Source of the DNA: Patescibacteria group bacterium
GTDB taxonomy: Bacteria > Patescibacteriota > Gracilibacteria > Peribacterales > Peribacteraceae
Direction of reading: 5' to 3'
Assembly: GCA_043819035.1 (NCBI GenBank)
Contig: JBDRFD010000029.1
Span: 1-43,738, forward strand
Length of the DNA stretch: 43,738 bases
Positions 11,565-43,209 of the stretch are shown one piece after another (the first letter of the stretch is position 1; each line of letters starts with the position of its first letter). The notes beneath the pieces were generated by a model that saw only the letters and a list, made by a program, of their open reading frames with translations, had not been told where the DNA came from and ran no database searches. A program made the translations under genes and the position numbers.

Positions 11565-12014
11565 ATGAACCTCAAACAGCGCAACTCCTTCACCCGACTC
11601 CGCACACTCCGCCGAGGTTTCACCCTCCTCGAACTAATGATCGTGCTAGGAATATTCGGTATCCTCGCCCTCATCGTTCTGGTTGCAATAAATCCAACCA
11701 AACAACTAAGCGAAGCACGCGGCGCGAACCGTCATGCGTCCGTGAGGGAAATAGAGAACGCTGTCATCCAGTACATCATTGATGGAAATGCGCTCGCAGG
11801 TATCCCCGCGGGAAAAATAAACTCACAGGATATCTGCAGAACAGGAATCTCGGGTGCGTGTTACGAACTCGATGTCCTTTCTCCGACGTATTTAGTCTCA
11901 CTTCCCATCGACCCGGACGAAACGGACCCGGATCTCACGGGTTATCGAATTTACATGCTTGGCAGCTTCATCAAGGTCTGCTCGCCGAGGGTGGACACCG
12001 ATTGTGGGACGTAA
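11565..12014 (+). CDS. Type IV pilin-like / pseudopilin protein with a prepilin N-terminal cleavage-methylation motif
   Basis: RRGFTLLELMIVLGIFGILALIVLVAINP matches the class III signal (G|FTLxE followed by a hydrophobic helix). The C-terminal region contains a Cys pair. Confidence 0.85.
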   Translation: MNLKQRNSFTRLRTLRRGFTLLELMIVLGIFGILALIVLVAINPTKQLSEARGANRHASVREIENAVIQYIIDGNALAGIPAGKINSQDICRTGISGACYELDVLSPTYLVSLPIDPDETDPDLTGYRIYMLGSFIKVCSPRVDTDCGT

Positions 12015-12045
12015 AGAAAGGGTAAAGTGTAAGGGGTAAGGGGAA

Positions 12046-12430
12046 AGGGGAAAGGGAAAATGTCTGAACCGTAGATTACGAACAATGTCTGAATCACGGA
12101 TATTACCTCTCCCCTCGATCCCCTCTCCACAGGAGAGGGGAAGCTCTGTTATTGCAGAAAACAGAGTTTTTACTTGTTAAACGAAGCTCCCCTTCCTCCC
12201 GTGGAGGAAGGGGCCGGGGGATGGAGGTAAAATCCGTGATTCAGACAACGTAAGAAGTTATGACAGAGATAAGTCTGAAACTAGGATTTGAAAGATTATC
12301 GACCTTCGCCTCTTGGCTACTAGGGACAAACTATGCTACGACCGATAAGAAAGGATTAAAGGATTAGCATGATTAATCTAGTTAATCCTTTAATCATGTG
12401 AATCATGGTCCCAGACAATTTGCTATCAGT
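12046..12430. repeat. Non-coding composite of nested palindromes, bounded by a ~70-bp direct duplication of the pilin gene 3' end
   Basis: It contains a family A inverted repeat (12086..12247), family B twin hairpins (12120..12213) and ATTAAAGGATTA...TAATCCTTTAAT (about 12354..12392). It is flanked by 11974..12045 and 12431..12500. Confidence 0.7.
12086..12247. repeat. Family A inverted-repeat element (TGTCTGAATCACGGAT arms)
   Basis: TGTCTGAATCACGGAT (12086..12101) and ATCCGTGATTCAGACA (12232..12247) are a perfect 16-bp inverted repeat, extendable to about 25 bp. Relatives lie at 20704..20820 and 35953..36054. Confidence 0.85.
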
Positions 12431-12599
12431 TCGCCGAGGGTGGACACCGATTGCGGAACGTAAAAAAGAGTAAAGTGTAAGGGGTAAGGGAAAAAGGGTA
12501 AGGGGAAAACGAATTTAATCAAGTTTTCCACTTTCCCTTTTCACTTTTCAGTTTCTTTCCGTTTCCCTTTACCCTTTTCCCCTTTAGAATCAACTCTCT

Positions 12600-15500
12600 A
12601 TGCAGCCCTCCGATTTCGTCCACTTACATTGCCACTCGACATATTCCTTGCTCGAAGCCCTACCAAGCCCTGCAGAGATTGTCGAACGTGCAAAAGAGCT
12701 CAAACAAACGGCCGTGGGAATCGCGGATAAGGGCTACACCTACGGGCTCGTGGAATTCTATAAGGTCGCGAAGGAGCAGGACATCAAGCCGATTTTGGGA
12801 ATGACAACATATGTTGCGGCACGATCGCGCCACGACCGCGAACGCGGGGTGGACTCGAAGCGTTACCCGCTTGTTCTCCTCGCAGAGACACAGGAAGGTT
12901 ACTCCAACCTATTAAAGCTTGCGACATTCGCCGCACTCGAAGGCATGTACTACAAGCCGCGTGTCGACAAAGAGCTTCTCAAAAAATATGGGAAAGGATT
13001 GATCGCACTAAGCGGACCAATCAGCGGTGCAATCCCAAGGGCGGCACTCGCAGAAGATGGAGAAGCACTCACGAAGCTGGCTGAGGAGTATTGGTCATTC
13101 TTCGGCAAAGAGAATCTCTATTTTGAATTGATGGATTTGCCGGAAGTTGCAGGGCAAGCGGAGGTGAATCAACAACTCATTAAATGGGGAAATGAACTCG
13201 ATGTGCCGCTGGTCGCAACATGCAACAGCCACTACTGCCGTCCGGGGGATAGTGAAGCGCACGATGTGCTGCTGTGTATTCAGAAGAACGCGAATGTAAC
13301 TGACCCGAGCCGCTTTTCCATGCGAGACACGGACTTCTCCATGCGCCCGTTTGAAGAGTTGGAGAAAGCTTTCGAGCATGCACCACAGGCTCTGGAAAAT
13401 ACACGTGTGATTGCAGACCGTTGTGACGTCACATTGGAATTTGGAAAGTACCATATCCCCCGCTTCCCTCTCCCAAAAGGGACAACAGAGGAACAAGAGC
13501 TGAAACGGCTCGCCGAAGAAGGCCTGAAGAAACGCTACAGAAAACCCACCAAAGAGCATCGAGAACGTTTGGATTATGAATTGAAAATCATCGAACAAGT
13601 TGGCTTTGCCGGGTACTTCCTGATCGTCTCGGACTTTGTAAACGAAGCAAAGAGCAGAGGGATTACCGTAGGACCGGGGCGAGGATCTGCTGCAGGTTCG
13701 ATCATTGCTTATTGTTTAGGAATAACCGGACTTGATCCGCTCGAACACGGACTTTTCTTCGAACGTTTCCTGAATCCTGAGCGTATCTCGATGCCCGACT
13801 TTGATATCGACTTCGCCGACACGCGCAGAGATGAAGTACTCGAGTACGTTCGCGGGAAATATGGAGAAGATCATGTTGTGCAAATCTGCACCTTTGGAAC
13901 ATTGGCAGCCAGAGCCGCTGTAAAAGACGTCGGTCGTGCGTACGGCGTTCCATTCTTGGAGATGAATACGCTTGTAAAATTCATTCCGGAGCGCCCGGGC
14001 ACCACACTCGCGGAGGCACTGGAAACGAGCGAACTCAAGGCCGCCTACGATAGCAACAAGACGTATAAGCAGATCATTGATACGGCGCTCAAACTTGAAG
14101 GAAAAGCTCGACACGTTTCAGTCCATGCATGCGGCGTGATCATTACCGAAGAGCCGGCAGTGCATAACACCGCCCTTCAGCGCGCGCCAAAAGATGACCT
14201 GACGATAATCACACAAACCGCTGCCAAACCATTGGAAGCGTTGGGCTTGCTGAAAATGGACTTCCTGGGGCTGATGAACCTCACAGTAATCCAGACAACA
14301 CTTAAAATTATCGAACGAATCGATAAGAAAAAACTTGATATTTCTTCCATCCCCCTCGACGACAAAAAAACCTACGCGCTTTTGCAGCGCGGCGATACAA
14401 CCGGCGTCTTCCAGTTGGAATCCGGAGGAATGCGCCGGTACTTAAAGCAACTCAAACCAACGGAGTTCGAGGATATCACCGCGATGATCTCACTCTTCCG
14501 CCCGGGCCCCATGGAATGGATACCCAGCTTCATCAAACGCAAGCACGGCAAAGAGGAAGTGAAGTACATACACAAAGATCTGGAGCCGATCCTCAAGCCC
14601 ACACATGGTATCGGAGTTTATCAGGAGCAAATTCTGCAGATGGCACAGACCTTTGCGGGGTTTAGCCTGGGTGAGGCGGACCTCCTGCGTCGTGCCATCG
14701 GGAAAAAGATAAAAAAGGAGCTCGACGCACAGCGTGAAAAGTTTATTGAGGGTTCCAAAAAACAGGGATATGACGAAAATCTTGCTATCAAGATCTTTGA
14801 CGACGTAGTAATGCCCTTTGCGGGATACGGGTTTAATAAATCACATGCCGCGGGTTATGCGCGCATCTCTTACGAGACCGCTTACCTAAAAGCAAACTAC
14901 CCTGCGGAGTTTATGGCGGCGCTCCTGAGTAGTGACGCGCAGAGAACTGATCGTGTGATGATCGAAATCGAGGAATGCCGCACGATGGGAATGGAGGTGC
15001 TGCCTCCTGACATTAATGAGTCGCTCAGGCACTTTACTGTGGTCCCAGGAACTGACAATCTGACCAAATCAGAAATCAGAAATCAGAAATCACAAAACAT
15101 TCGCTTTGGGCTGACCGCTATTAAAGGTATTGGGGACAGTACCGTTCAACAGGTGATCGCCATCCGTGATGAAGGCGGCAAGTTTGAAAGTATTGAGGAT
15201 TTCGCCAAACGCATTCCCGCAAAGATTCTAAACAAGAAGCTCTTGGAATCGCTCGCGAAGTCAGGTGCGCTCGACTGTTTTGGAGAGCGTCATGTGCTTG
15301 TAGAACACTACGACAGTATCGTGAACTTTGCGAAAGCTTTTGGTGATGTGAGCAGCTCTCAGACCAATCTCTTCGCAGGGATGGACGAAGCGATGACCGC
15401 GCCTACACTTGAATTCCCTGAAACAAAGGAGGCCTCGCTGCAACAGAAACTACAATGGGAAAAGGAAACGCTTGGTCTGTATGTTTCCAGCCACCCGCTC

Positions 15501-16406
15501 GCAGGCCTAAAGAAGTACATAGGCAAGAAGGCGCAGTTGGTCGCCAACCTCACAACGAAAGAAGTCGGTAAGAAGGTGACACTCGCCGGCATTGTGGAAG
15601 GGGTAAAGAAAATTACTACGAAGAAGGGGGAAACAATGGCAATCGTGTTCCTGGAAGATCCGACCGGAAAAATAGAAATCACGCTTTTTCCGCGAACATA
15701 TGCAGAAGCGGCTGAGTTTTTGGAAGAGCCTGATGTTGTCCTTGTCGCAGCCGGAATGCTCGACTACCGCGCAGGCCAGCTCCAGATGCGTGCCAACGCG
15801 GTGAAGAAGGCATCACTTTCCACAATGATTTCTCACGCCAAAGAGCAGGGATTCTTCGATGAGGAAGAGGCCAAAAAAGGAATCTCCTTCGTCAAACCTA
15901 TTCTGGACGAAGAGGAGCAGGTGGAGGTTCTGGATGAGGAAGGCAATGTGGTCGCAGGAGAAACTGTCACAATCAGTGAAGGAAAGGAGGAAGAGGAATA
16001 TTTGGGGCCGTTGGGTTCGTGGATCATCGGAGGAATGGATACTACTGATGTTTTGAAAGTTATTGGATTATATAAAGTCCCGGAATCAGGAATCAGGAAT
16101 CAGGAATCTGAAAATTCCAAGAAACAATCCCCGAATTCCAAATCCCTGATTCCTGATTCCACCCCAAAAACGGAAGAAATAACATCTCCCACCCACATTT
16201 CTATCCACACGATTGAACTCCCCGAGCGCGCACCGAAGAAAATGCTCCTGGATCTTAAAAAGGTTCTCGAAACATTTCCCGGAAAAGAGAAGGTGCAGCT
16301 TAAGATTGGCAAGCAACTCATTCCCCTTCCCATGACCGTTAGTTATTCAACCATTCTGCTCAAGAAGGTCGATGAAGTGATTGAAAAGTATTCCGCTGTT
16401 GCATGA
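12600..16406 (+). CDS. dnaE: DNA polymerase III alpha subunit
   Basis: The PHP-domain start is MQPSDFVHLHCHSTYSLLEA. Other motifs are MPDFDIDF, GLLKMDFLGL, an OB fold (VTLAGIVEGVKKITTKKGETMAIVFLEDPTG) and a C-terminal extension. Confidence 0.97.
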   Translation: MQPSDFVHLHCHSTYSLLEALPSPAEIVERAKELKQTAVGIADKGYTYGLVEFYKVAKEQDIKPILGMTTYVAARSRHDRERGVDSKRYPLVLLAETQEGYSNLLKLATFAALEGMYYKPRVDKELLKKYGKGLIALSGPISGAIPRAALAEDGEALTKLAEEYWSFFGKENLYFELMDLPEVAGQAEVNQQLIKWGNELDVPLVATCNSHYCRPGDSEAHDVLLCIQKNANVTDPSRFSMRDTDFSMRPFEELEKAFEHAPQALENTRVIADRCDVTLEFGKYHIPRFPLPKGTTEEQELKRLAEEGLKKRYRKPTKEHRERLDYELKIIEQVGFAGYFLIVSDFVNEAKSRGITVGPGRGSAAGSIIAYCLGITGLDPLEHGLFFERFLNPERISMPDFDIDFADTRRDEVLEYVRGKYGEDHVVQICTFGTLAARAAVKDVGRAYGVPFLEMNTLVKFIPERPGTTLAEALETSELKAAYDSNKTYKQIIDTALKLEGKARHVSVHACGVIITEEPAVHNTALQRAPKDDLTIITQTAAKPLEALGLLKMDFLGLMNLTVIQTTLKIIERIDKKKLDISSIPLDDKKTYALLQRGDTTGVFQLESGGMRRYLKQLKPTEFEDITAMISLFRPGPMEWIPSFIKRKHGKEEVKYIHKDLEPILKPTHGIGVYQEQILQMAQTFAGFSLGEADLLRRAIGKKIKKELDAQREKFIEGSKKQGYDENLAIKIFDDVVMPFAGYGFNKSHAAGYARISYETAYLKANYPAEFMAALLSSDAQRTDRVMIEIEECRTMGMEVLPPDINESLRHFTVVPGTDNLTKSEIRNQKSQNIRFGLTAIKGIGDSTVQQVIAIRDEGGKFESIEDFAKRIPAKILNKKLLESLAKSGALDCFGERHVLVEHYDSIVNFAKAFGDVSSSQTNLFAGMDEAMTAPTLEFPETKEASLQQKLQWEKETLGLYVSSHPLAGLKKYIGKKAQLVANLTTKEVGKKVTLAGIVEGVKKITTKKGETMAIVFLEDPTGKIEITLFPRTYAEAAEFLEEPDVVLVAAGMLDYRAGQLQMRANAVKKASLSTMISHAKEQGFFDEEEAKKGISFVKPILDEEEQVEVLDEEGNVVAGETVTISEGKEEEEYLGPLGSWIIGGMDTTDVLKVIGLYKVPESGIRNQESENSKKQSPNSKSLIPDSTPKTEEITSPTHISIHTIELPERAPKKMLLDLKKVLETFPGKEKVQLKIGKQLIPLPMTVSYSTILLKKVDEVIEKYSAVA

Positions 16407-16508
16407 TATATACTATCTATGAAATGGTTGGACGGTTCTAAAGTGGCAACAAGCCTGAGAATCGCTTGCGAGCCATCCAGCCATCCAACTATCCAGCCAT
16501 CCAACCAC

Positions 16509-17096
16509 ATGCAGATCCTCACTCCATCAGAAGCGGCCATAAACGTTGCCCTCCAAACCCTCGAAGATGGCGGAATAGTCGCACACGCGACAGAAACCTG
16601 CTACGGCCTTGCCTGTGATATGACAAATCCGGAAGCAGTCGAAAAGCTCTTTCTCATTAAAGAGCGAAATCCAAACCAGCCCATAAGCGCACTCTTCCCC
16701 ACTGTCGAAGCAACCGAAGGGTGGGTGGAGTGGAACGATGAAGCACGTGAGCTTGCAGCCAAGGAACTCCCCGGCCCTCTCACCATTGTTCTACCATGTA
16801 TTAAAGAAGAAATCTTCCCCACATCACCACTCCATTATTCCACCACGCTCGGCATCCGTGTTTCCTCTCATCCAATTGCTAAAGAACTTTCTGAAAAGTT
16901 TGGTAAGCCCATCAGTACCACTTCAGCCAATGTTTCCGGAGAACCATGTTCTTACAGTGCAGAAAATATTATCGGACAGTTCAAAGACAAAGAGCATAAA
17001 CCAGACCTTATTTTGGATAGCGGGCAGCTGGAAGAGAGATCTCCTTCGAAGGTTGTGTCGTTTATAAAAGATGAACCGCAGGTGTTGCGGTATTGA
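16509..17096 (+). CDS. tsaC: L-threonylcarbamoyladenylate synthase (Sua5/YrdC/TsaC family)
   Basis: YrdC-type motifs are VAHATETCYGLACD, GPLTIVLP and SANVSGEP. I moved the start to ATG 16509 because the 30 upstream codons of the track ORF are encoded by an 8-mer tandem repeat. Confidence 0.85.
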   Translation: MQILTPSEAAINVALQTLEDGGIVAHATETCYGLACDMTNPEAVEKLFLIKERNPNQPISALFPTVEATEGWVEWNDEARELAAKELPGPLTIVLPCIKEEIFPTSPLHYSTTLGIRVSSHPIAKELSEKFGKPISTTSANVSGEPCSYSAENIIGQFKDKEHKPDLILDSGQLEERSPSKVVSFIKDEPQVLRY

Positions 17097-17135
17097 GAAA
17101 TAGTAGTAAACTGATCGTCCTATTCTCCATTCATT

Positions 17136-17447: not shown

Positions 17448-17458
17448 ACATATAATAA

Positions 17459-17489
17459 ACGCAGCTGCGACGCGGCGTCGCAGCTGCGT
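17459..17489 (+). terminator. GC-rich near-perfect palindrome with 15-bp arms; possible terminator or a mobile-element end relic
   Basis: ACGCAGCTGCGACGC-G-GCGTCGCAGCTGCGT lies 12 nt after the stop at 17447. No T-run follows it. Confidence 0.4.
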
Positions 17490-17655: not shown

Positions 17656-17680
17656 CTTACAAGTAGGTGTAGTATACGTT

Positions 17681-20703: not shown

Positions 20704-20820
20704 TGTCAGAATCACGGATTACACTGATTCAACGGATTTCACAGATATTCGTTAAAGTGTGGCATGCAATTTTTATAATCCGTGTAATCCGCTTAATCCA
20801 TTAAATCCGTGATTCTGACA
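20704..20820. repeat. Family A inverted-repeat element; probably also the aspS terminator
   Basis: TGTCAGAATCACGGATT (20704..20720) and AATCCGTGATTCTGACA (20804..20820) are a perfect 17-bp inverted repeat followed by TTTTT. TAATCCG-type units are tandemly repeated in the interior. Confidence 0.85.
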
Positions 20821-20894: not shown

Positions 20895-21926
20895 ATGATG
20901 CCCAAAAAGAAACCCAAAAAGAAACCGGGCCGAAAAAATCTGAGCCCAAAAGCCGCCCGTAAAGCTTTTTTACAGAAGCAATTTATGCAGGCCCAGCAAC
21001 TTGTCTTCAAAGAAAAAGCTCGCCAGGAAGCTACTAAAGGGGAACACAAAGAGGAAAGGGCAGCTGGGGAAGAGCTCGCACAGGAGCAGCTCAGTGAGAG
21101 ACAGCTTGAGGAAGAAAAGCAAAAGAAGGGGCGTGAGGAATGGAAGAAGAAAGAAGAAAAGGAAAAGGAGCTCCTCGCAGAAATGAAACGCAAACAAGAA
21201 GAAGAGAAGAAAAACCGCCGGAAATTCAAAGAACATCTGCAGGAGGAAGAGAAAAAGAATAAGCAACTGATGGAAGATCTCGCCGCTTCGAATGCCATCC
21301 GAGATAAAATGGAACGCAGAAAGATGGAAGGAGCTAAACTGGAAAGAGATACCAGGGCAGAGGCGAAAAGTACCGAAAACCGCAAACAGAATGAAGCTGA
21401 GATGAACGCAAAGAGTAAGAAGAAACAACTGGAATTGGCTAACAGAAAGGTGCAGGGGAAAATAGATGAAGAAGAACGGAGCAAAACGTATGTACTGGAG
21501 GATGAAGCACGAAGGCAAAAGGCAAAGCTTGACAACCAAGAACGCAAAAAGAAATCTGATCTTAAGTTCGCCTATGAACGCAAGCGAGCTGAAACACAAC
21601 GATTCACGAATCCGTATCAACAAAAAAGCGAAGTTATGAAGATTGACCGTGGGGAGCAAAGTGAACTGAAAAAGATAGAGGCAGAAACGCGCAGGCAGCA
21701 ATCGGAAATTGATGCGAAAACCAAGAAGGCGATCTTCGATGTTCAAAAGGAAGCAAGCCACAAGCGCGGTCAGGCCGCCTCGGATGAGCGCGGGCAAATA
21801 ACGCAGATCGACCTGGAGAAGCGTGAGGCCAAACGCCTGGCAGAACTGGAGGCCTCGCAGAAAAAGGCCGGCATCCGCCGCAGGCAGATCAAGATTTTGC
21901 ACGGAGAAGAGGAAACGGATTCCTAA
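20895..21926 (+). CDS. Highly charged Lys/Glu/Arg-rich low-complexity protein (343 aa)
   Basis: The plus frame gives a coiled-coil-like K/E/R sequence. The antisense ORFs are F/L/S-rich shadows. The 3' end has a diverged second copy at 22659..22715 with mostly synonymous differences, which supports this reading frame. Confidence 0.6.
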   Translation: MMPKKKPKKKPGRKNLSPKAARKAFLQKQFMQAQQLVFKEKARQEATKGEHKEERAAGEELAQEQLSERQLEEEKQKKGREEWKKKEEKEKELLAEMKRKQEEEKKNRRKFKEHLQEEEKKNKQLMEDLAASNAIRDKMERRKMEGAKLERDTRAEAKSTENRKQNEAEMNAKSKKKQLELANRKVQGKIDEEERSKTYVLEDEARRQKAKLDNQERKKKSDLKFAYERKRAETQRFTNPYQQKSEVMKIDRGEQSELKKIEAETRRQQSEIDAKTKKAIFDVQKEASHKRGQAASDERGQITQIDLEKREAKRLAELEASQKKAGIRRRQIKILHGEEETDS

Positions 21927-21962
21927 TGCACCGAACCAGGATTGAGGAGCTCCACTTCGTCT

Positions 21963-22319
21963 TCAAGAGTCACCATCCATATCGTTAAGCATTATGGTGA
22001 TTACTTTTTTGAGAACAGGCAGGTCTTTTTTAACAGTATCCCATACTCTCTGAACATTTGTCGCAGAGTATTCGTGAATGAGAATGTTGCGCATACTAAT
22101 AGCTTCCTTCCAGGATATCTGCTTGTACTTCTTTCTTAAAAGAACCGGCAGTTTACTGGCGGCTTCTCCGATAATCGATATCTGACGAATGACAGCATCC
22201 TGAGTTTTATCATCTCTACAAAACAATCTCTTCCCTTCGGTTGTGTATTCCTCAATATGAACAATGGCATTCAGGATATCATCCAAATATACCCGAACAT
22301 CTTTCTGTTGCTTGGTCAT
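21963..22319 (-). CDS. hepT: HEPN-domain (DUF86) toxin of a HepT/MntA-type module
   Basis: The R-x4-H motif is MRNILIHEY. The size and the 4-bp overlap with the upstream nucleotidyltransferase gene fit. Confidence 0.85.
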   Translation of the reverse strand: MTKQQKDVRVYLDDILNAIVHIEEYTTEGKRLFCRDDKTQDAVIRQISIIGEAASKLPVLLRKKYKQISWKEAISMRNILIHEYSATNVQRVWDTVKKDLPVLKKVITIMLNDMDGDS

Positions 22320-22627
22320 AATGCTCGAGCATCGGAAAGAATGCGCCTGCGTAGCGCAGGCTTGATGCTATCATCCGGAATAACATCTATTTTCCTTTGC
22401 AGAGTTTCTTCCAAATCAATTTTTAGTCCTGCAAGATCAAATAGCGTACTCCCCTTTGGCATCTTCACCAGAAGATCCAGATCGCTGCCCTTGGTCTGTT
22501 CCCCGCGGGAAAAAGAGCCGAAGACACGTACATTGCGCACTCCATGTTTGCGCGCAATACGCAACACCGGTGCACGCAGTCGTGCCATATTAAATCTCGC
22601 CTTGTGCAATTTCTTCTGATTGCTCAT
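22316..22627 (-). CDS. mntA: Minimal nucleotidyltransferase (MNT) antitoxin
   Basis: VFGSFSRGEQTKGSDLDLLV contains the GS-x-RGE...DxD nucleotidyltransferase motif. Confidence 0.85.
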   Translation of the reverse strand: MSNQKKLHKARFNMARLRAPVLRIARKHGVRNVRVFGSFSRGEQTKGSDLDLLVKMPKGSTLFDLAGLKIDLEETLQRKIDVIPDDSIKPALRRRILSDARAL

Positions 22628-22729
22628 AGCCTTATTATATCAAAGAACTATAAGACATAGAAAAAGGCCGGTATCCGCCGCAGGCAGATCAGAATCTTGC
22701 ATGGAGAAGAGGAAGAGTAATACGGCTTC

Positions 22730-22758: not shown

Positions 22759-22894
22759 TAATTATTGAACATATGTACGATTCCGCTATGCCGCTATTAC
22801 TGCATATTTCTAGAAGTAATTAGCGTTAATTTCTTAACGATCTATCAGCAGAATGCTAGGCACAATCCCTAAAGAGAATTAGACTAAACACTGT

Positions 22895-22981
22895 GCCCAG
22901 GTGGCGGAATTGGTAGACGCGCTAGCCTTAGGAGCTAGTGGGATTAATCCCGTGGAGGTTCGATTCCTCTCCTGGGCACCA
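22895..22981 (+). tRNA. tRNA-Leu (anticodon UAG), class II with a long variable arm, CCA encoded
   Basis: Hand-folded cloverleaf. Acceptor GCCCAGG/CCTGGGC. Anticodon stem CTAGC/GCTAG with loop CTTAGGA. Variable arm GGGAT-TA-ATCCC. T arm GGAGG-TTCGATT-CCTCT. Discriminator A followed by CCA. Confidence 0.93.
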
Positions 22982-23116
22982 GAATTGAATCACATCAAAT
23001 AGCCTATTAGAATTTGTCATCTCCGAAAGGAGCCGTCCGTAGCTCCAATTTGTCCTACATAACTTTGGCAACGGAGGAAGGAGCGAGGGAGGCTCCTGGG
23101 CACCAGAAGATATTTA

Positions 23117-25444: not shown

Positions 25445-25446
25445 GA

Positions 25447-25918: not shown

Positions 25919-28900
25919 TCCTGTTTTTCCTGTTTTTCCTTTTTCTTCTTCACCATGGATTCCACCTCATTAGTTAGCTCCTTTAACCACTTATTAGCCT
26001 TCTCTCCACTCTTACGAACAATGGCGCCATGCTCAATCCTCAGTGTATTCCCGCTCACCCTCCACTGCGGATTTACTTTAAGCAGCTCCATAATTTCCTT
26101 GGCAGTTACCCTCGGACTCAGGGTCAGCACAATTTCTACGGAGTCTTTCTTGTTGCCAGACTCTTCTTTAACCCGCACAACTCCTGCGTGACGACATGCC
26201 ATTTTTAACCGCAGTACCGCGAAGAGATTCTCAACCTGCTCTGATAACTTGCCGTACTCCTCTTCCAGATCATCTTCGAACTCTTTCAGGATTTCTTCAT
26301 CCTCACTCCCCGCAAGCTTCTGGTACACGGATATTTTCTCCTGCGGGTCGGTGATGTAGAAAGAAGGAATCATCGCTTCCACGGGAAGAAGAATCTCCAC
26401 ATTAATTTCTTCCTCAGCTTCGCCTTTTCGTCCCGCTTTAATTTCCTCAACCGCAGCCTTGAGCATCCTGAGGTAATGGCTAACTCCAACCGTCTGCATC
26501 GTTCCCGACTGGTGCGCTCCGAGGATTTCACCGGCACCTCTGATCTCCAAATCTTTCATGGCTACCTGGAAACCGCTACCAAGTTCACACGCTTCCACAA
26601 TCGCACGGAGCCTCTTTCGCGCATCGTCCTTAAGTTTGGCGCCATGGTAAAGGAAATATGCGAAGGCCTGTCGCTTGCTGCGTCCGACTCGTCCACGCAG
26701 CTGATAGAGCTGCGCGAGGCCGAAGTTTTCCGCCCCGTTCACAATCAACGTATTCGCGCGTGGAAGGTCGATTCCGTTCTCGACGATGGTCGAACTCACC
26801 AGCACTTGGCACTCGCCTTTTTTAAAGGCCATGATTCGTTTCTCTAGATCATCGGGCCTAAGTTGCCCGTGTCCGACGATGAACGTCGCCTCGGGGATAA
26901 GTTCGCGCAGTTTGTCGGTAAATGCATCGATCGTTTCCACACGGTTATGCAACATGAAGACCTGCCCTTCACGCTTGATCTCTTCCAGAATCGCCTGGCG
27001 AACCAGCGAGTCTGAATATTTTCGCACTTCGGTGATAATGGGGAGGCGCCCCGGAGGAGGAGTGGTGATCGTCGTGATGTCACGCAACTTATGCAGTCCC
27101 AGGTTCAGTGTCCGGGGAATCGGTGTGGCGGTCAGCGTGAGGATGTCGACCGACGCGCGCATCTCCTTAAACTTTTCTTTCTGCTTCACACCAAAGCGTT
27201 GCTCCTCGTCTACTATTACAAGCCCCAAATTTAAAAACTGAACGTCAGGCTGGAGGAGGCGATGCGTTCCTATGATAATATCGATGTCCCCCTTCCTGAG
27301 TCTCTGAATAATTTCCTTCTGCTGCTTGGGACTTCTAAAGCGTGAGAGCATTTCGATGCGCACGGGAAAATCTGACATGCGTTCTTTGAAAGTATGGAAG
27401 TGCTGGTCGGCGAGAATGGTGATGGGCGCAACGAGCGCAACCTGTTTCCCGTCCTGCACTGCTTTGAATGCCGCGCGCATTGCCACTTCCGTTTTCCCGA
27501 ATCCCACATCTCCGCAGATCAGGCGGTCCATCGGGTAGTCATTCTCCATATCTTTTTTGAAATCTTCGATCGCTTTTAGCTGCCCCGGGGTTTCCTGGTA
27601 CGGGAATCCTTTTTCGAACTTTGCCTGGTCATTGTTATCATCCTTATAAGCAAACCCCTTGGCCTTCGCACGCTTCGCGTAGAGGTCTAGCAGGTCTTTG
27701 GCAATTTTCCTGGTCTCCACCCTCATCTTTTCGGATACTTTCTTCCATTCCATTGTCCCAAGCCTTGTCAGATTAGGTTCGTTCCCCTCTTCGTACACGA
27801 ACTTGCTGAGCTTGTCCGCCTGATCGACGGGGATAAAGAGTTTGTCGTTTTCCGCGTACGTCAATTCCAGATACTCGTGCATAGTGTTATCCACCTCCTT
27901 CTGTGTCATACCCTCAAATAGCCCAATCCCATGCTCCATGTGGACCACGTAGTCACCGGGGACGAGAGATGTGATAAAGTCGAGCGCGAGTTTGGCAATA
28001 CTCCTCTGCTTCCCGGCCTTCTTCAGAGAAAATATTTCGCGATCTGTGAGGAGCGCAAACTTGAGGTCCGGATTTTGGAGCGAGTGCGGGAGCAAATCAT
28101 CTTCTTCCGCGCCAATGAGAGTCACCACCCCCTTCTTGCTCTCCTTTTTTGTCGTATGTGCAATCCTCTCCTCACGCAAAATACCTTCCAGTTCTCCTAA
28201 ACGCTTTGTCACTACAAAGAGTGACCAGTCTTGGGTCAATTTATCGCGAATATCATTCAAGAAGTCGCCTAACGTATAGAACTTGAGAACCGAGAGATAG
28301 CGCACGTGCGCGTGATGTTCCTCGCCTGCCGGAAAAGGCGTAAACCTTAGCGCCGAATTCTGCAGAGGAAACTCGATATCATCCTGGTCATCCAGAACAA
28401 GGAGCGAATCCGCGGGCAGCTGCCTCGCAAGAGCGTTCGTCTGCTCATACACAATGGGGAAGACGGTGAGAGGTCCCTTGTACTCAGTCGTCTTGGAAAG
28501 ATCATCCCGATCAACCGCGAAGATCTTTTCGACCGTGTCAAACTCGAGCGCTACCCGAAAAGGTTGACTTTCCTGAATGGGATAAATGTCGAACACATCT
28601 CCGCTGCGTCTGTATTCCCCCGGCTGTAAGTACAGGTCTTCACCGTGGCTGTACCCTAAAGCCACTAATGACTCGACCACTTCTGTGAAATCAATCTCCT
28701 TTCCTTTCTTGAGAACGATTTTCTCTTCCTCCAGTTTTACAAATGATGGGAACATCGTGTCCCACGTTTTCCTTGAACAAAGATACACACCTACCCCCCT
28801 GCCACCGTCGCTCATGAGCGACGTGACTTGCATAAAGAGAAGGAACGGTTGCAGTGCCTGCGGGACTATCTCTCCCTCTCCATTTTCAATGGGGCTCAAG

Positions 28901-29130: not shown

Positions 29131-29333
29131 TAGATTTTCAAAATATTACTACTTTAGAAATGATGTATTCCGCTATAAGTCCCGCGATCCAAATAGATCG
29201 AGGAGACTGAGGTATTCACTGTGACTATGGATACTATAGCAATATTTTGGAGGGTTCTCAAGGATGATTTATATGTTTTTCTCTCCCAACAACCCAGATG
29301 TACTTCCATCACTACAGCTGGTGAAAGCTCTAA

Positions 29334-29469
29334 GGGCTAAAGCCCATTAAGTCTTTTGTTAACCCCGCATTCTCGCCTTCGCATAGCCGGATCGATAGTT
29401 CGAATGTCAATAAAATGTAGATGTCTCGTAAGAACGCTACGGCGGAGCAAGGTAAATGCGGGGTTAACA
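29334..29469. repeat. Second family C element, with an 85-nt interior
   Basis: GGGCTAAAGCCC (29334..29345). TGTTAACCCCGCAT (29357..29370) and ATGCGGGGTTAACA (29456..29469) are a perfect 14-bp inverted repeat. Confidence 0.75.
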
Positions 29470-29525
29470 AACGCATATTTTTAGTTGCACTTGCATGATT
29501 AGTAAGCATTCACGGTATTAAAGAG

Positions 29526-29562
29526 CTTACTCCTCCTGCAACCTAAGAGGCATTATCAGGTG
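29526..29562. repeat. Exact 37-bp copy of the dnaN 3' end (last 11 codons, stop, plus 1 nt)
   Basis: CTTACTCCTCCTGCAACCTAAGAGGCATTATCAGGTG is identical to 33040..33076. Confidence 0.9.
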
Positions 29563-29683
29563 GGGCGTACTCGCCGCTTATATCCCTGAGTGTTCCCCGA
29601 GATTTCATTATCGTTATTTAAAATTAATGTTCTATTATCAAAATAGATGTATAAAATACATATGATTTCCCCCCATCTTAATA

Positions 29684-31174
29684 ATGCTGAATATTGGCCT
29701 CGTACATCTTGTGCTCGTTGCTAGCTTATTAACAAACATCGTCTTGATGACTATCAATACACAAGGCCCTTCTCAGCTTGGGCAAATCATGGGAGACCCC
29801 TTTGTGGATGAATTTTATGAAGAGCCACAGGATATACTAGATCTTTTTGATTTTACGTCCGACCCCTCACCTGAACATGGTACATTTTACTCAGACTATG
29901 AAGATAGGGATGACGATGATGAGGAGCATGAGCCCTTTACTTCTGAAGCGCCTCTTGATCCTCCCGGTGAGCATGTCCCCGCTCTTACGCTTGCACATGA
30001 CACAGAGATCTCCTCATTACATAGCACTTTTGCCTCCGCTGCTGGACATGAGCCTGCTGAATCCGCAAGTGAATCTATTCACCATCCGGAAGATTCTTCC
30101 TACCATGACCCGGCTCTATCTACAGCTGGACATGACCCTGTGGTATCAACTGGCGATCATGAATCAACTCTTTCCCCGAGGCACGATGAAACACTCTCTA
30201 CTATGGGGCACTACCCTGTAGATAGTAGTACACATACAGCTTATGATTCTTTGAGCCATACCCCATCATTATCGACGAGCGGGCATTACCCCAGGCTCTC
30301 TGCAGACGGTAAACATGATCCCTCGGATTCTGGTTCTAAACATGATTCCTTTGCTTCTGCTACTCACGACATTACCGAATCATACATTGGGCATTGGCCA
30401 AGTGTGTCTGCTACGCATTCTGCTCTTGATTCATCCAGCCATGAAAGCGAGCTTTCTGTTGTTGGACACCACCCATCAATTTCCATACTACATACCATTG
30501 GTTACTCAGAAGCTCACAGCACCGAGGACTCTAAAGCTGGTCATGACCCCTTTGTGTCGACTGATGCTGAACATTCACCATCTGACTCATATGCTCATGA
30601 TCCTGTTGTAAGTGGAGCAGCCCCTCATGACCCTACTATGAGCACTGGTGGTCATTCTTTGAGTGACTCCTTAGGTGGTCATCCTGGTATGCATACGGTT
30701 TCATTAAGTGAAGAGGGGGCTCGTGCTCTTATGGAGGCTCATGCTATTGTTGGGAGTGAGCCTCATGACGCTGAATATTCCAGCTCTGATCATGATACTG
30801 CTGCTTCCGACGGTGAGCATAATCCTTTTTTATCACATGATCTAGCAACATCACTTGGTGATCATTTATCGAGTGCTTCCTCAATGCATACAGTACCTAA
30901 AAGCGAAGAAGGGGCTCATGATATTGTTGGGAGTGAGCCTCATGACGCTGAATATTCCGGTATTGGCCATACCACTAGTGACTCCTCAGGCATTCACGAT
31001 CCCGTTGTAAGTGAAGAAACCTATCATGATTCTGCTATGTCAACCGGTGACCATCCTGAGCCTCATGACCCGGCCTTCTCTGTTTTAGAACAACATTATG
31101 CCTCCGACTCAGGTCATGGGGAGGGTCACGATCCAATGGATTCATACGACGAAGATGGTGGTTACGGTGAGTAG
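29684..31174 (+). CDS. Membrane-anchored His/Asp/Ser/Pro-rich repeat protein (degenerate x-H-D-P-x-x-S units)
   Basis: The N-terminal TM segment is LVHLVLVASLLTNIVLMTI. It carries many GHDPVVS/HDPxxS-like units. The same repeat continues in frame after the TAG up to 31288. Confidence 0.7.
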   Translation: MLNIGLVHLVLVASLLTNIVLMTINTQGPSQLGQIMGDPFVDEFYEEPQDILDLFDFTSDPSPEHGTFYSDYEDRDDDDEEHEPFTSEAPLDPPGEHVPALTLAHDTEISSLHSTFASAAGHEPAESASESIHHPEDSSYHDPALSTAGHDPVVSTGDHESTLSPRHDETLSTMGHYPVDSSTHTAYDSLSHTPSLSTSGHYPRLSADGKHDPSDSGSKHDSFASATHDITESYIGHWPSVSATHSALDSSSHESELSVVGHHPSISILHTIGYSEAHSTEDSKAGHDPFVSTDAEHSPSDSYAHDPVVSGAAPHDPTMSTGGHSLSDSLGGHPGMHTVSLSEEGARALMEAHAIVGSEPHDAEYSSSDHDTAASDGEHNPFLSHDLATSLGDHLSSASSMHTVPKSEEGAHDIVGSEPHDAEYSGIGHTTSDSSGIHDPVVSEETYHDSAMSTGDHPEPHDPAFSVLEQHYASDSGHGEGHDPMDSYDEDGGYGE

Positions 31175-31294
31175 AACCATGATCCCTTTACTTCTGGGGC
31201 ACCGCATGATCCTGCTTTGAGCGAAGAAGCCAGTCATGATCCCTATGTGTCTGAACCTCATGATCCCTATATGTCAGAGTCAATGTAGTCTTTC

Positions 31295-32392
31295 TTAGTC
31301 GTTTTTTGGATCCTTTGTAATACAGCCTGTTAGCTCTTGTTGATCTTTAAACTTCTTTTGGCATGCAGCTACATGCCCCCAGATATCTACCATTTGTGAG
31401 TATGTTATGTATGGAGAGATAAGAACCCGGCTTGGCTTTCGATTGCCAGATTCATCCAGAAAATCTCCTCTTCCGCGTACTTTACCTTCTAAAGTTGGAT
31501 ATACCCTTATAATGTACTGCTCGAATTCTTCCGGATCCACAAAGTTATCTGCAAGCTGATCGAAGGGCCCATCATAATAATTATTCTGTCGCACATTCAT
31601 TTTATCTACTCCAAACAGAATTTTCCTTCCCATCCCAGGCTCATCATAAAATGCAAATCCTGAGCGCCTTCCTACGTAAATATCTTTCCCATACGGTTGA
31701 AGAAGATCGGGCAATGGTGCGGATTCATCTAGAACAAATCTGAATCTGGATTGCGTTTCATCAAAAAGAAGGACTAATTGAAATCCGGATTCATCAAATG
31801 TGCGCACAACAAATATTTCCCCCTCGTGCATTCTCATATCTACAGGCTCAGTTTGTGAAACATTGTGCAGAAGGAATGTTACAGTCTTATCTTTATATGT
31901 AACCGTGTATTCCAAATCATCAATTTTCTTCAGGATGACACCATCTTCATCGGAGAGATTTTTGTGCCATGATTCCCTATACTCAAAGTATGGTTCGCGC
32001 CGGTTTGTCACCCGAAAGTATGCGAAGCTAATGATCCCTTCTTCACGATCAATACTATCCAACCGAATATTCCCCCATATGTCCCCGCCATTTGCATAGA
32101 AATGGAAGTAGTAATAGTTCTCAGTTGGATACACATTCACAGTGTCTTTGAGCGAGCCAAACACGTATGAAAACATCGATTCAATGTCATCAAGATCCAG
32201 GGATTCTGATCTTACTTCGTCTATAAACTCTTCATTTGTATAGAGTTTGGGCATATTCCCTTTTAATGCTTCTGGGTCATTTCCTGTACCAACAGTTGAG
32301 CTCTGATTGGCACACCCCGTTAGAACCACACTAATTATGAGTGTTGCTATAGCGCCGATGGATTTCAAATAATTTATTTTCATCTTGTTCAC
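31295..32392 (-). CDS. Hypothetical lipoprotein (365 aa)
   Basis: The lipobox is ...IISVVLTGCANQSS, preceded by a basic N-terminus (MNKMKINYLK). Confidence 0.75.
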   Translation of the reverse strand: MNKMKINYLKSIGAIATLIISVVLTGCANQSSTVGTGNDPEALKGNMPKLYTNEEFIDEVRSESLDLDDIESMFSYVFGSLKDTVNVYPTENYYYFHFYANGGDIWGNIRLDSIDREEGIISFAYFRVTNRREPYFEYRESWHKNLSDEDGVILKKIDDLEYTVTYKDKTVTFLLHNVSQTEPVDMRMHEGEIFVVRTFDESGFQLVLLFDETQSRFRFVLDESAPLPDLLQPYGKDIYVGRRSGFAFYDEPGMGRKILFGVDKMNVRQNNYYDGPFDQLADNFVDPEEFEQYIIRVYPTLEGKVRGRGDFLDESGNRKPSRVLISPYITYSQMVDIWGHVAACQKKFKDQQELTGCITKDPKND

Positions 32393-32439
32393 TCTAACAT
32401 ATATTGCCTTATTTGCTCACATATCTTTAGCTGAGCAAC

Positions 32440-33010
32440 TGAGCAACTGAACACCCCTCGCCTTAAAGGCGAGGGGTTCGCGCTGCACTGAAGTGCCCTC
32501 GTTATTGGATATCCACAGTTCCGTGCTGCAATTCTTCTCCTTCTTGATTATCGATGTATTCCTTAATCATCTCATCTGTGATCGCACCACTTGATACTGC
32601 AAGGTATCCTCTTGCCCAGAAATGACGCCCCCAGAAGGTTTTGCGGACAGATGGAAAGAGAGAAAACAGTTTGTAAGGGCTTTCCCCTTTGATCTTTTGC
32701 ATAAGTTTTGAAATTGAAAGATGTGGTGGGTAGGATGCGAAGAGATGGACATGATCAATGGCAACTTTCCCTGAGATGATCTCTACATCTTCTTCCTGAC
32801 ATATTTGACGGATGAGATCTCGTACTTTCTCTCCAACTTGCCCATACAGTATTTTTTTGCGGTATTTTGGAACCCAGACTAGATGAACTTTAAGATCGTA
32901 TTTGCTGTGAGAAGTGGTGCGATAGTGCCTCATAAAAAGGCCACGTAGGGTACCACAAGTTGAGTAAGTGTCGAACTGAAGTCTCCGCCTAAAGGCGGGG
33001 GGTTTCACCC
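32440..33010 (-). mobile_element. IS200-type insertion sequence (IS200/IS605 family, tnpA only); boundaries approximate
   Basis: tnpA is flanked by subterminal hairpins CCCCTCGCC-TTAAA-GGCGAGGGG (32454..32476) and CTCCGCC-TAAA-GGCGGGG (32983..33000). Confidence 0.8.
32502..32933 (-). CDS. tnpA: IS200/IS605-family Y1 (HUH) transposase TnpA
   Basis: Motifs are MRHYRTTSHSKYDLKVHLVWVPKYRKK, the HUH motif HVHLF, and a C-terminal Tyr region (YIDNQ). I moved the start to 32933 so that the upstream hairpin is non-coding. Confidence 0.9.
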   Translation of the reverse strand: MRHYRTTSHSKYDLKVHLVWVPKYRKKILYGQVGEKVRDLIRQICQEEDVEIISGKVAIDHVHLFASYPPHLSISKLMQKIKGESPYKLFSLFPSVRKTFWGRHFWARGYLAVSSGAITDEMIKEYIDNQEGEELQHGTVDIQ

Positions 33011-33040
33011 ATTCCCCGAACTAGATACTAAGGACCACAC

Positions 33041-34201
33041 TTACTCCTCCTGCAACCTAAGAGGCATTATCAGGTGCAGCGACTGCTTTGCAGATGGAAT
33101 GTGGAATACCGCGGGGTGCATACTATCTGTGATGTGTACTTCCACCTCTTGATCGTCCACATGAGTTAAAAAGTCGAGGAGGTACGAGGAGCTTAGGGCA
33201 ATCTTGTTCGCGCTTCCGTCGACCGACACATCAAGCGTGGCTTCGTCTGTTCCGATCTGCGTCTGTGGAGTTTTGATGTGAAGGGATCCCTTTTTGAAAC
33301 TGAATGTGAGATTGTTATTAATCTCTTTCGCGAAGTAGTGCATACGTTTTACAACCGTAAGGAGTTCCTTTGTAGGAATCTTCACCTTGGTATTCGAGTC
33401 TTTTGGAATAATCTGCTGATAGTCCGGGAACTTTCCTTCGATCAGGCGCGAAAGGAGTTGTGTCTGCCCCACTGCCAATTCAATTTGTTGGCTACTCAAA
33501 GAGATCTCAACCTTTGGAGCTGCCTTTTTCTTTTTGTCCTCTTCTTCTCCACCCTTTTCTGTTTTCCCATCCTCCTTTTTGGAACCCAGTACACTCTTAA
33601 GTTCTTCCAAGACCTTTGCAGGAATGATGCAGGAGATATCGGATCCTCCGCTCATCGGAATACTATATTCAGAGAGTCTGTAGCTGTCTGTGGCCACAAA
33701 TACCAATTTCCCCTTCTCCGCGCGCAAATATACTCCGGAGAGTACCGGTCTTAGTGTTGATTTCGCTGATGCGAATGTCACCATATGAAGCGCATCCAGA
33801 AGCGGACCGGTATCCAAAGAGAATGACACTTCTTTTTCTATGGATGTGATTGTGGGATATTCAGATGCTGCTTCACCTGCAATTATTGTCTTTGCGTGTT
33901 TAGAGGTACATTTAAGTTGGGTCCCCTCACTGGTCTCCAAGAGAACCTCGTCATCAGAATTATATTGCGCAAAGTTTAATATTGCTTTTGATGGCACCGT
34001 AATCGCCCCCTCGTTTTCTATACTCGCTTCAAAGCTTGTCACAATACTCAGTTCCAAATCGGTTGCACTTACGGTGCACCTCTTTCCTTCGGCCACAATT
34101 AAAATATTTCCAAGAATCGGAAGTGCCTGCTGCCCGCTTATCGCACGACTCACAAGATGAATTGATTGGAGAAGTTGTGATGTTTGGCAGGAAAATTTCA
34201 T
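33041..34201 (-). CDS. dnaN: DNA polymerase III beta sliding clamp
   Basis: The N-terminus is MKFSCQTSQLLQSIHLVSRAISGQQALPILGNILIVAEG. The three-domain length fits, and the C-terminus is LIMPLRL. A K/E-rich insertion (KKEDGKTEKGGEEEDKKKKAAP) is present. Confidence 0.95.
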   Translation of the reverse strand: MKFSCQTSQLLQSIHLVSRAISGQQALPILGNILIVAEGKRCTVSATDLELSIVTSFEASIENEGAITVPSKAILNFAQYNSDDEVLLETSEGTQLKCTSKHAKTIIAGEAASEYPTITSIEKEVSFSLDTGPLLDALHMVTFASAKSTLRPVLSGVYLRAEKGKLVFVATDSYRLSEYSIPMSGGSDISCIIPAKVLEELKSVLGSKKEDGKTEKGGEEEDKKKKAAPKVEISLSSQQIELAVGQTQLLSRLIEGKFPDYQQIIPKDSNTKVKIPTKELLTVVKRMHYFAKEINNNLTFSFKKGSLHIKTPQTQIGTDEATLDVSVDGSANKIALSSSYLLDFLTHVDDQEVEVHITDSMHPAVFHIPSAKQSLHLIMPLRLQEE

Positions 34202-43207: not shown

Positions 43208-43209
43208 AT

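What the first reader, a model, noticed from the sequence alone, without database searches (positions are those of the whole stretch)
11974..33076. Recurrent pattern: intact gene, inserted segment, then a relic copy of that gene's 3' end (four loci)
The four cases are as follows.
- Pilin: 11974..12045 and 12431..12500; the insert is 385 bp of palindromes.
- K/E-rich gene: 21859..21915 and 22659..22715; the insert is the HepT/MntA cassette.
- tRNA-Leu: 22969..22984 and 23093..23108; the insert is 108 bp.
- dnaN: 33040..33076 and 29526..29562; the insert is 3.5 kb with IS200, a lipoprotein and a repeat protein.
In all four the intact gene comes first in its own transcriptional direction and the relic lies on the far side of the insert. 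This is the polarity expected for site-specific integration into gene 3' ends, where the incoming DNA supplies a replacement end. No integrase is present in any insert. Two of the repeat pairs differ only by synonymous-type changes. This suggests either trans-acting or lost recombinases, or an uncharacterised cassette-insertion or gene-end-targeted recombination process.
Basis: partly seen in the sequence, partly recalled or inferred. Interest (0 to 1): 0.7.

Follow-up and report, generated by a model that had tools for sequence, protein, structure and literature searches.

The report
Displaced gene-end relics flanking inserted DNA
Four genes in this Peribacteria (CPR) contig are each followed by inserted DNA and then a short leftover copy of the gene's own end; the pattern is real and recurs in related genomes. 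It fits a known kind of recombination scar ("insertion with long target duplication") rather than a new integrase-like system.

Summary
All four repeat pairs exist, and chance does not explain them. They are the pilin gene (about 80 nt), the K/E-rich gene (51/57), tRNA-Leu (16/16) and dnaN (37/37). Related Peribacteria genomes supply empty sites for all four. The closest relative carries a different insert, with its own dnaN-end relic, at the same dnaN site. At least seven more gene-end relics occur in 101 related loci, at dnaE, nrdR, aspS and a K/E-like gene, plus one 5' relic.

Each protein-gene relic runs in frame to its own stop codon. Differences between intact and relic copies fall mostly at third codon positions (38 of 57). 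The two copies are therefore diverged functional alleles, not fresh target duplications.

No insert in the window or in relatives encodes a tyrosine or serine recombinase. Relic lengths for the same gene differ between lineages, and some "inserts" are only 44-163 nt.

Best reading: these are recombination scars from uptake of related DNA, joined by homology on one side and imprecisely on the other, which displaces one gene end. [quoted passage not shown] Interest is moderate.

The parts
11565..12014 (+). Intact type IV pilin-like gene (149 aa)
   Evidence: Pfam N_methyl motif. An ortholog in L070 is followed by a 208-nt gap with no relic, which is the empty site.
11977..12060 (+). Pilin repeat copy A: the last about 12 codons, the stop codon and about 46 nt of purine-rich downstream sequence
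12061..12425 (.). Insert 1: non-coding, strongly palindromic. It holds a MITE-like element at 12086-12247 with TGTCTGAATCACGGAT termini.
   Evidence: Inverted repeats. Further copies of the termini lie at 20704-20820 and 35953-36054. The inner palindrome recurs at 1033-1168. Fold z-score is -10.9.
12426..12509 (+). Pilin relic: the last 10 codons with their own TAA stop, then the purine-rich arm that pairs with the pyrimidine-rich arm at about 12530-12580
   Evidence: Two differences in the coding part, both synonymous. Fold.
20895..21926 (+). Intact K/E-rich gene (343 aa) with a novel tail ...EEETDS*
   Evidence: Orthologs in L001 and L036 lie at the same syntenic position. No Pfam family.
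21859..21915 (+). K/E repeat copy A, inside the live gene
21927..22658 (-). Insert 2: HepT (21963-22319) and MntA (22316-22627) toxin-antitoxin cassette
   Evidence: Pfam HepT-like and NTP_transf_2. The cassette is absent in L001 and L036, where the K/E stop lies within about 50 nt of tRNA-Leu. The closest cassette (77% nt) sits in an unrelated context.
22659..22720 (+). K/E relic: 19 codons plus its own stop (...HGEEEE*), carrying the ancestral-type end GAGTAAT
   Evidence: 51/57 identity. The end matches the gene ends in L001 and L036.
22895..22981 (+). Intact tRNA-Leu (anticodon TAG)
   Evidence: ARAGORN and Rfam
22985..23092 (.). Insert 3: 108 nt with no ORF and no match elsewhere
23093..23108 (+). 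tRNA-Leu 3'-end relic (16/16). It lies 8 nt from the stop of the convergent 775-aa gene, the position the real tRNA end occupies in L001 (11 nt).
33041..34201 (-). Intact dnaN
   Evidence: Pfam DNA_pol3_beta domains
33040..33081 (-). dnaN repeat copy A: the last 11 codons, the stop and 1 nt
29563..33039 (.). Insert 4 (3.5 kb): IS200-type element (about 32440-33030, tnpA at 32502-33008 on the minus strand), lipoprotein gene (31295-32392, minus) and repeat protein gene (29684-31174, plus)
   Evidence: Pfam Y1_Tnp. The cargo has no homolog in 101 related loci. 33 of 40 related loci have dnaN-mfd gaps of 23-323 nt.
29526..29567 (-). dnaN relic: 37/37 identical, in frame to its own TAA stop

Best explanation
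The four structures are recombination scars, not the work of a dedicated integrase.

In each case, DNA from a related lineage was spliced into the chromosome. That DNA carried the end of the same gene plus whatever lay beside it in the donor: a toxin-antitoxin pair, palindromic elements, or an IS-bearing segment. One side joined through homology in the conserved gene or tRNA. The other side joined imprecisely, so one copy of the gene end was displaced downstream rather than replaced. The alternative route to the same product is a single crossover with a circular intermediate that carries one copy of the gene end.

Only short, often diverged duplicates persist. Long ones would be removed again by recombination between the repeats. 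Selection keeps the events that leave the gene whole, which favours gene 3' ends.

This is the pattern described as 'insertion with long target duplication'. It is related to homology-facilitated illegitimate recombination and to 3'-end displacement arrays.

Shown here: the repeats, the empty sites, the recurrence, the two-allele signature and the absence of recombinases. Inferred: the joining mechanism and the role of DNA uptake.
For: 1. Empty sites exist in relatives for all four cases.
2. Every protein-gene relic is a complete terminal fragment that runs in frame to its own stop codon. In L014 and L016 the tails have diverged the way orthologs do.
3. Intact-versus-relic differences fall 10/9/38 by codon position over 12 pairs. 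This gives p=3e-7 against 1/3, and p=0.002 against the 0.47 expected if a dead copy diverged in place. The L070 nrdR relic has 6 of 6 synonymous changes, and the L001 dnaN relic is all synonymous. The copies were therefore separate functional alleles.
4. There is one novel junction per event, at the relic's upstream edge. No motif is shared among these junctions.
5. No tyrosine or serine recombinase is present in the window or in any insert of relatives.
6. Relic boundaries vary for the same gene in different lineages.
7. Some inserts are tiny: 44 nt in L070, 163 nt in L016, 108 nt for the window tRNA.
8. In L014 the insert is gene X, the ordinary neighbour of dnaE in eight other lineages that lack a relic.
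9. A 5'-end relic of dnaE occurs in L051, so the process is not strictly 3'-specific. Downstream 3' relics still outnumber upstream 5' relics by about 10 to 1.
10. The pattern is published for restriction-modification genes. It occurs mostly in naturally competent species, with repeats spanning stop or start codons (PMC2853133). Similar displacement by homology-facilitated illegitimate recombination was proposed for T6SS arrays (PMC5361080).
11. CPR Saccharibacteria are naturally competent (PMC10633639).
Against: - No donor arrangement for the window's own inserts was found.
- No clear microhomology is visible at the junctions.
- From my own knowledge, not checked here: laboratory homology-facilitated illegitimate recombination usually gives insertion-deletions rather than duplications.
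- The dnaN and tRNA repeats are 100% identical, so they carry no allele signal. A tRNA 3' end is also the classic integrase target.
- The left edges of the dnaN relics in the window and in L001 lie within 3 nt of each other.
- L024 shows two successive additions of related cargo (39% identical) at the same nrdR end. This hints at site preference.
- Competence of this particular organism is not shown.
Confidence: 0.5

Rival explanations
1. Site-specific integration by tyrosine or serine integrases that target gene 3' ends. The element's attP supplies a replacement end, as e14 and phage 21 do at icd or as islands do at tRNA genes. The integrase is either encoded elsewhere and acts in trans, or was lost when the elements decayed to small remnants.
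For: - The geometry and polarity are those of attL and attR at a gene 3' end.
- The K/E relic carries the ancestral end while the live gene has a new tail.
- A tRNA 3' end is a classic target.
- The dnaN end was hit independently in two lineages, with left edges 3 nt apart.
- L024 has a tandem array at nrdR.
- Synonymous differences are also what attP-borne gene ends show, as at icd with e14 (own knowledge).
Against: - No integrase is present in the four window inserts or in the inserts at eight sites in relatives.
- At least seven different target genes lie in one 25-kb syntenic neighbourhood. Each would need its own specificity.
- Boundaries vary for nrdR, aspS and the K/E gene.
- Inserts of 44-163 nt are hard to obtain by decay without losing a repeat.
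- A 5' relic exists.
- The L014 insert is a normal neighbouring gene in other lineages.
- Viral contigs contain neither the dnaN-end nor the tRNA-end sequence.
Confidence: 0.25
2. An unknown insertion mechanism makes a long target duplication at the moment of insertion, for example a widely staggered break that is filled in. The two copies then diverge in place.
For: - The dnaN (37/37) and tRNA (16/16) pairs are identical, as fresh duplications would be.
- The K/E live gene could simply read from the duplicated target into the insert until a chance stop (TDS*).
Against: - The third-position bias of differences (38/57) exceeds what a dead copy diverging in place predicts (p=0.002).
- Relics in L070 and L001 carry 5-6 changes, all synonymous.
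- The relic tails in L014 and L016 look like orthologous gene ends.
Confidence: 0.15
3. Assembly artefact: a chimeric join of strain variants in a metagenome assembly created false duplicates.
For: - The window is a whole 43.7-kb metagenomic contig.
- Exact 55-nt repeats spaced 155 nt apart in the SPAdes contig L012 and in L006 look like k-mer artefacts. This shows that such errors occur.
Against: - The pilin and K/E copies are diverged, not k-mer-exact.
- The lengths (16, 37, 57, about 80 nt) match no common k.
- The same kind of structure occurs in independent assemblies from other samples: L001, L014, L016, L024, L032, L057 and L070.
- Each copy has unique flanks on both sides.
Confidence: 0.04

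Closest known systems
Insertion with long target duplication (Nobusato et al. 2000, Gene 259:99; Furuta et al. 2010, NAR, PMC2853133)
   Same: Small gene sets are inserted without an integrase or transposase. They are flanked by direct repeats of more than 30 bp that are single-copy in an empty-site genome. The repeats often span a stop or start codon, so the target gene stays whole. The pattern occurs mostly in naturally competent bacteria. The cargo is an addiction-type module.
   Different: The cargo here is a HepT/MntA toxin-antitoxin pair, palindromic MITE-like DNA and an IS200-bearing segment, not restriction-modification genes. The host is a CPR bacterium. The tRNA repeat (16 nt) is below the 30-bp cut-off those authors used. 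The codon-position signature of two alleles was measured here; I did not find it discussed in the passages I read.
Homology-facilitated illegitimate recombination and 3'-end (C-terminal) displacement arrays (de Vries & Wackernagel 2002; Rhs, Jackson 2009; T6SS arrays, Kirchberger 2017, PMC5361080)
   Same: The anchor lies in a conserved gene with an imprecise join on the other side. Incoming DNA brings a new gene end plus neighbouring genes and pushes the old 3' end downstream as an orphan. Successive events build arrays, as at L024 nrdR.
   Different: The targets here are housekeeping genes (dnaN, dnaE, nrdR, aspS, a pilin gene, a tRNA), not polymorphic toxin genes. The relics are only 10-33 codons long. 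No junction microhomology was demonstrated.
Integrase-mediated islands and prophages at gene 3' ends (tRNA/tmRNA islands; e14 and phage 21 at icd)
   Same: An intact gene is followed by an insert and then a relic 3' end. The replacement end differs mainly by synonymous changes.
   Different: No integrase is present in any insert. The inserts range from 44 nt to 3.5 kb. Crossover positions vary. Many different targets lie close together.

Membership tests
Insertion with long target duplication | Insert flanked by direct repeats longer than 30 bp | tested here: met
   Pilin 79-84 nt, K/E 57 nt, dnaN 37-42 nt. The tRNA case has only 16 nt and fails this cut-off.
Insertion with long target duplication | The repeat is single-copy at an empty site in a related genome | tested here: met
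   K/E and tRNA in L001 and L036. dnaN in L036 and 32 other loci. Pilin in L070.
Insertion with long target duplication | No integrase or transposase that accounts for the insertion; insert shorter than 20 kb | tested here: met
   Pfam finds only an IS200 Y1 transposase, in insert 4. From my own knowledge, IS200 elements make no target duplication. The inserts are 108 nt to 3.5 kb.
Insertion with long target duplication | Cargo is a restriction-modification system (a search criterion of the original papers) | tested here: not met
   The cargo is HepT/MntA, palindromic DNA, and an IS200 element with a lipoprotein gene and a repeat protein gene.
Site-specific integrative element (tyrosine/serine integrase) | Integrase gene inside the element | tested here: not met
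   None in the window or in the cargo of relatives' inserts.
Site-specific integrative element (tyrosine/serine integrase) | Fixed crossover position in independent insertions at the same gene | tested here: inconclusive
   nrdR 12 vs 25 codons, aspS 14 vs 21 and K/E about 19 vs 26 argue against it. dnaN at 11 vs 10 codons argues for it. The lineages compared are distant.
Site-specific integrative element (tyrosine/serine integrase) | Excision to a circular form with attP | not testable with these tools
   This needs reads or an experiment. Viral contigs hold no match to the dnaN-end or tRNA-end sequences.
Homology-facilitated illegitimate recombination | Donor DNA from a diverged relative, with one homologous anchor | tested here: met
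   The third-position bias of differences (38/57) and the in-frame relic stops show two functional alleles.
Homology-facilitated illegitimate recombination | Illegitimate junction at short microhomology | tested here: inconclusive
   No convincing microhomology and no shared motif at the relic upstream edges.
Homology-facilitated illegitimate recombination | Host takes up DNA (natural competence) | not testable with these tools
   The only support is a pilin gene in the window and competence shown for CPR Saccharibacteria (PMC10633639).
Transposon target-site duplication | Short duplication of fixed length, terminal inverted repeats and a transposase | tested here: not met
   The repeats are 16-84 nt and variable. 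Inserts 2-4 have no bounding inverted repeats.

The most novel reading that the evidence does not exclude
Peribacteria may have a real gene-end-directed cassette system. It could take either of two forms. In one, a trans-acting recombinase not yet recognised targets gene 3' ends. In the other, a recombinase-free cycle operates: a cassette carrying a copy of a host gene end loops out by recombination between the flanking repeats, transfers, and re-inserts by a single crossover at the same gene end in new hosts. Two observations fit this reading: the successive additions of related cargo at nrdR in L024, and the two independent hits at nearly the same dnaN position.
Probability: 0.12. Interest if true: 0.7.

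Novelty: new member of a known kind. Interest (0 to 1): 0.4.

Why it matters
These structures show that small, streamlined CPR genomes gain accessory DNA at the ends of essential genes without carrying the usual mobility enzymes. The gains include toxin-antitoxin modules, IS elements and small unknown genes.

The relics also record exchange between diverged lineages. They could be used as markers to trace donors and to measure recombination in uncultivated bacteria.

The two-allele signature gives a concrete, testable handle on how "insertion with long target duplication" arises. The passages of Furuta et al. 2010 that I read propose no mechanism for that pattern.

Tried and rejected
- Exact-protein look-ups for DnaN, the K/E protein and the pilin found no other contig, so no same-species strain was available.
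- A protein search with the K/E protein gave nothing, probably because of low complexity.
- The closest HepT/MntA cassette (76% aa, 77% nt) sits in an unrelated context with no flanking relic, so it says nothing about a donor.
- Scans of viral contigs for the dnaN-end and tRNA-end sequences found nothing.
- Rfam found only the tRNA.
- No motif is shared at the relic upstream edges.
- A DNA-level scan comparing 3' and 5' ends at a lenient threshold was noisy with 15-19 nt hits. Only the longer hits and the protein-level scan are used.
- IS200 as the cause of the dnaN repeat was rejected, because to my knowledge this family makes no target duplication and the element lies at only one end of the insert.
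- Tandem duplication was rejected. The inserts are not paralogous to the DNA beyond the relic, and the two L024 cargo proteins are only 39% identical while the relics are 95-100% identical.
- Larger dnaN-mfd gaps in L081, L082, L091, L093 and L024 hold extra genes but no dnaN relic. None is obviously integrase-like, though these were not scanned with Pfam.
Full report
**What the window is.** The window is a complete 43.7-kb metagenomic contig with 47% G+C. It comes from a Peribacteria/Peregrinibacteria (CPR) bacterium. The closest genomes in the species-representative collection are Peribacteria MAGs with 77-90% AspRS identity. The gene order pilin, dnaE, sua5, nrdR, aspS, K/E-rich gene, tRNA-Leu, coiled-coil gene, mfd, dnaN is conserved across these relatives.

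All four repeat pairs exist.
- Pilin: 11977-12060 vs 12426-12509. With gaps, this is 79 nt at 90% identity.
- K/E gene: 21859-21915 vs 22659-22715, 51/57.
- tRNA-Leu: 22969-22984 vs 23093-23108, 16/16.
- dnaN: 33040-33076 vs 29526-29562, 37/37.

A self-BLAST finds five dispersed direct repeats under 12 kb apart in the window. Three of them, including the two strongest, are the protein-gene cases. An exact 16-mer repeated within 300 nt occurs at only one other place, inside the repeat protein. Shuffles give 0.005 such pairs. In each case the intact gene comes first and the relic lies downstream in the gene's own direction.

**Empty sites in relatives.**
- In L001 and L036 the K/E ortholog's stop codon lies within about 50 nt of tRNA-Leu, and there is no HepT/MntA cassette.
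- Both orthologs end ...xE* with the sequence GAGTAAT. The window's relic ends the same way, whereas the live gene ends ETDS*.
- In L001 the tRNA-Leu 3' end lies 11 nt from the stop of the convergent downstream gene. In the window the relic holds that position, at 8 nt.
- In L070 the pilin ortholog is followed by 208 nt and then dnaE, with no relic.
- Of 40 related loci holding both dnaN and mfd, 33 have a gap of 23-323 nt. The window's gap is 3914 nt.

**The pattern recurs.** L001 is one of the three closest relatives. The window, L001 and L036 are roughly equidistant at 74-81% nt identity. L001 has a different 0.85-kb insert, encoding a 229-aa protein of unknown function, at the same dnaN end. 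That insert is flanked by a repeat of about 110 nt covering the last 10 dnaN codons plus the downstream region. All differences in those 10 codons are synonymous.

A scan of 101 related loci (1.3 Mb) found further cases:
- the dnaE end in L014
- a K/E-like gene end in L016
- the nrdR end in L024, with two successive relics
- the nrdR end in L070
- the aspS end in L032 and L057

Same-strand downstream relics of C-termini outnumber upstream relics of N-termini by about 10 to 1. The single 5' relic is the first 10 codons of dnaE in L051, 86 nt upstream of the real start.

**What the relics are.** Every protein-gene relic runs in frame to its own stop codon, at the same or nearly the same position as in the live gene. 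In L014 and L016 the relic tails differ from the live tails the way orthologs differ. Over 12 pairs, nucleotide differences fall 10/9/38 by codon position. This gives p=3e-7 against an even spread. It gives p=0.002 against the 47% third-position share expected if a dead copy had diverged in place beside a constrained live copy. The L070 nrdR relic sits only 44 nt beyond the live gene end, has no cargo, and differs by six changes that are all synonymous. The two copies are therefore ends of two functional alleles brought together. They are not a duplication made at insertion. Each event has only one visible novel junction, at the upstream edge of the relic, and those edges share no motif.

**What the inserts are.**
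- Insert 1 is non-coding and palindromic. It contains a MITE-like element whose termini recur at 20704-20820 and 35953-36054. Its core recurs at 1033-1168.
- Insert 2 is a HepT/MntA cassette. Its closest relative (77% nt) sits in an unrelated context without a relic.
- Insert 3 is 108 nt with no feature.
- Insert 4 holds an IS200-type element next to dnaN, a lipoprotein gene and a repeat protein gene. None of these has a homolog in the related loci.

No tyrosine or serine recombinase is present in the window or in the inserts of relatives. In L014 the 'insert' gene is the normal neighbour of dnaE in eight other lineages that have no relic. The inserted DNA can therefore simply be what lay beside the gene in the donor. 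In L024 the two cargo proteins are only 39% identical, while the nrdR relics are 95-100% identical. This indicates successive additions rather than a tandem duplication.

**Mechanism.** The best-supported reading is recombination with DNA from related lineages. One side is anchored by homology in a conserved gene or tRNA, and the other side is joined imprecisely, so that one gene end is displaced instead of replaced. A single crossover with a circular intermediate carrying one copy of the gene end would give the same product. Short, diverged repeats persist because longer ones would recombine and delete the insert. Selection for intact genes would favour 3' ends. The joining step and the role of DNA uptake are inferred, not shown. 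CPR Saccharibacteria are naturally competent (PMC10633639), and the window encodes a pilin.

**Comparison with what is known.** The anatomy matches 'insertion with long target duplication'. That pattern was described for restriction-modification genes in Helicobacter, Haemophilus, Neisseria and others. [quoted passage not shown] It also resembles displacement arrays attributed to homology-facilitated illegitimate recombination (PMC5361080). It differs in host and in cargo. The integrase model explains the geometry. It is weakened by the absence of any integrase in all the inserts examined, by variable boundaries for nrdR, aspS and the K/E gene, by the tiny inserts, by the 5' relic and by the L014 case. 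It keeps some weight because a tRNA end is a classic integrase target, because the two dnaN relics start within 3 nt of each other, and because of the L024 array.

**Artefact.** Reads were not available. The diverged copies, the repeat lengths that match no common k-mer size, and the same pattern in independent assemblies all argue against artefact. Exact 55-nt repeats spaced 155 nt apart in L006 and L012 do look like assembler artefacts and were not counted.

**Verdict.** The structures are a new example, in CPR bacteria and with new cargo, of a known kind of rearrangement whose mechanism is still open. Interest is moderate.

Noticed in passing
window 12086-12247, 20704-20820, 35953-36054; core also at 1033-1168: A family of palindromic MITE- or REP-like intergenic elements with TGTCTGAAYCACRGAT termini. 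There are six terminus matches against 0.44 expected. Among 101 related loci, only L081 shares the termini.
   Followed up: partly
window 38535-39876: Nested inverted repeats (104-nt arms at 88%, outer 23-nt arms at 100%) bracket a 239-aa ORF with no Pfam match. This may be an unrecognised IS or an invertible segment. Next to it lie defence-like genes: a Schlafen-type helicase with a GIY-YIG hit, an RNase H-like protein and a MazG-like protein (40019-43560).
   Followed up: partly
L036 2327-2417 compared with window 22894-22984: tRNA-Leu is inverted in L036 relative to the window and L001, although it is 100% identical in sequence. The K/E-tRNA junction is therefore rearranged in several ways across lineages.
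   Followed up: no
L024 7245-9670: nrdR is followed by two successive units of cargo plus an nrdR 3'-end relic. The cargo proteins (197 and 206 aa, no Pfam match) are 39% identical paralogs on the opposite strand.
   Followed up: partly
L051 4579-4644: A 5'-end relic of dnaE: the first 10 codons, with 5 synonymous and 1 non-synonymous change, lie 86 nt upstream of the real start. It is the only 5' relic found.
   Followed up: partly
L006 17385-17594; L012 9042-9251 and 11788-11997: Exact 55-nt direct repeats spaced exactly 155 nt apart in L006 and in the SPAdes contig L012. These are probably k=55 assembly artefacts and are a caution for repeat surveys in MAGs.
   Followed up: no
window 28798-28831 and 38700-38733: A 34-nt palindrome-containing sequence (CCTGCCACCGTCGC.CATG.GCGACGTG) occurs inside mfd and again, at 88% identity, in an arm of the 38.6-kb inverted repeat.
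   Followed up: no
window 29355-29475 and 863-900: Hairpins built on GTTAACCCCGC/GCGGGGTTAAC lie upstream of mfd and near the start of the contig. They may be another small repeat family. The whole mfd upstream region (29131-29525) is unlike that of L001 and L036.
   Followed up: no
L016 11820-12554: A RelB-type antitoxin gene and a 93-aa partner sit between aspS and the K/E-like gene. The aspS to K/E to tRNA stretch therefore collects toxin-antitoxin cassettes in more than one lineage.
   Followed up: no
window 20895-21926: The K/E-rich protein gave no hit in the 5.8-billion-protein search, although syntenic orthologs exist in L001 and L036 (67-68% nt). Its function is unknown.
   Followed up: partly
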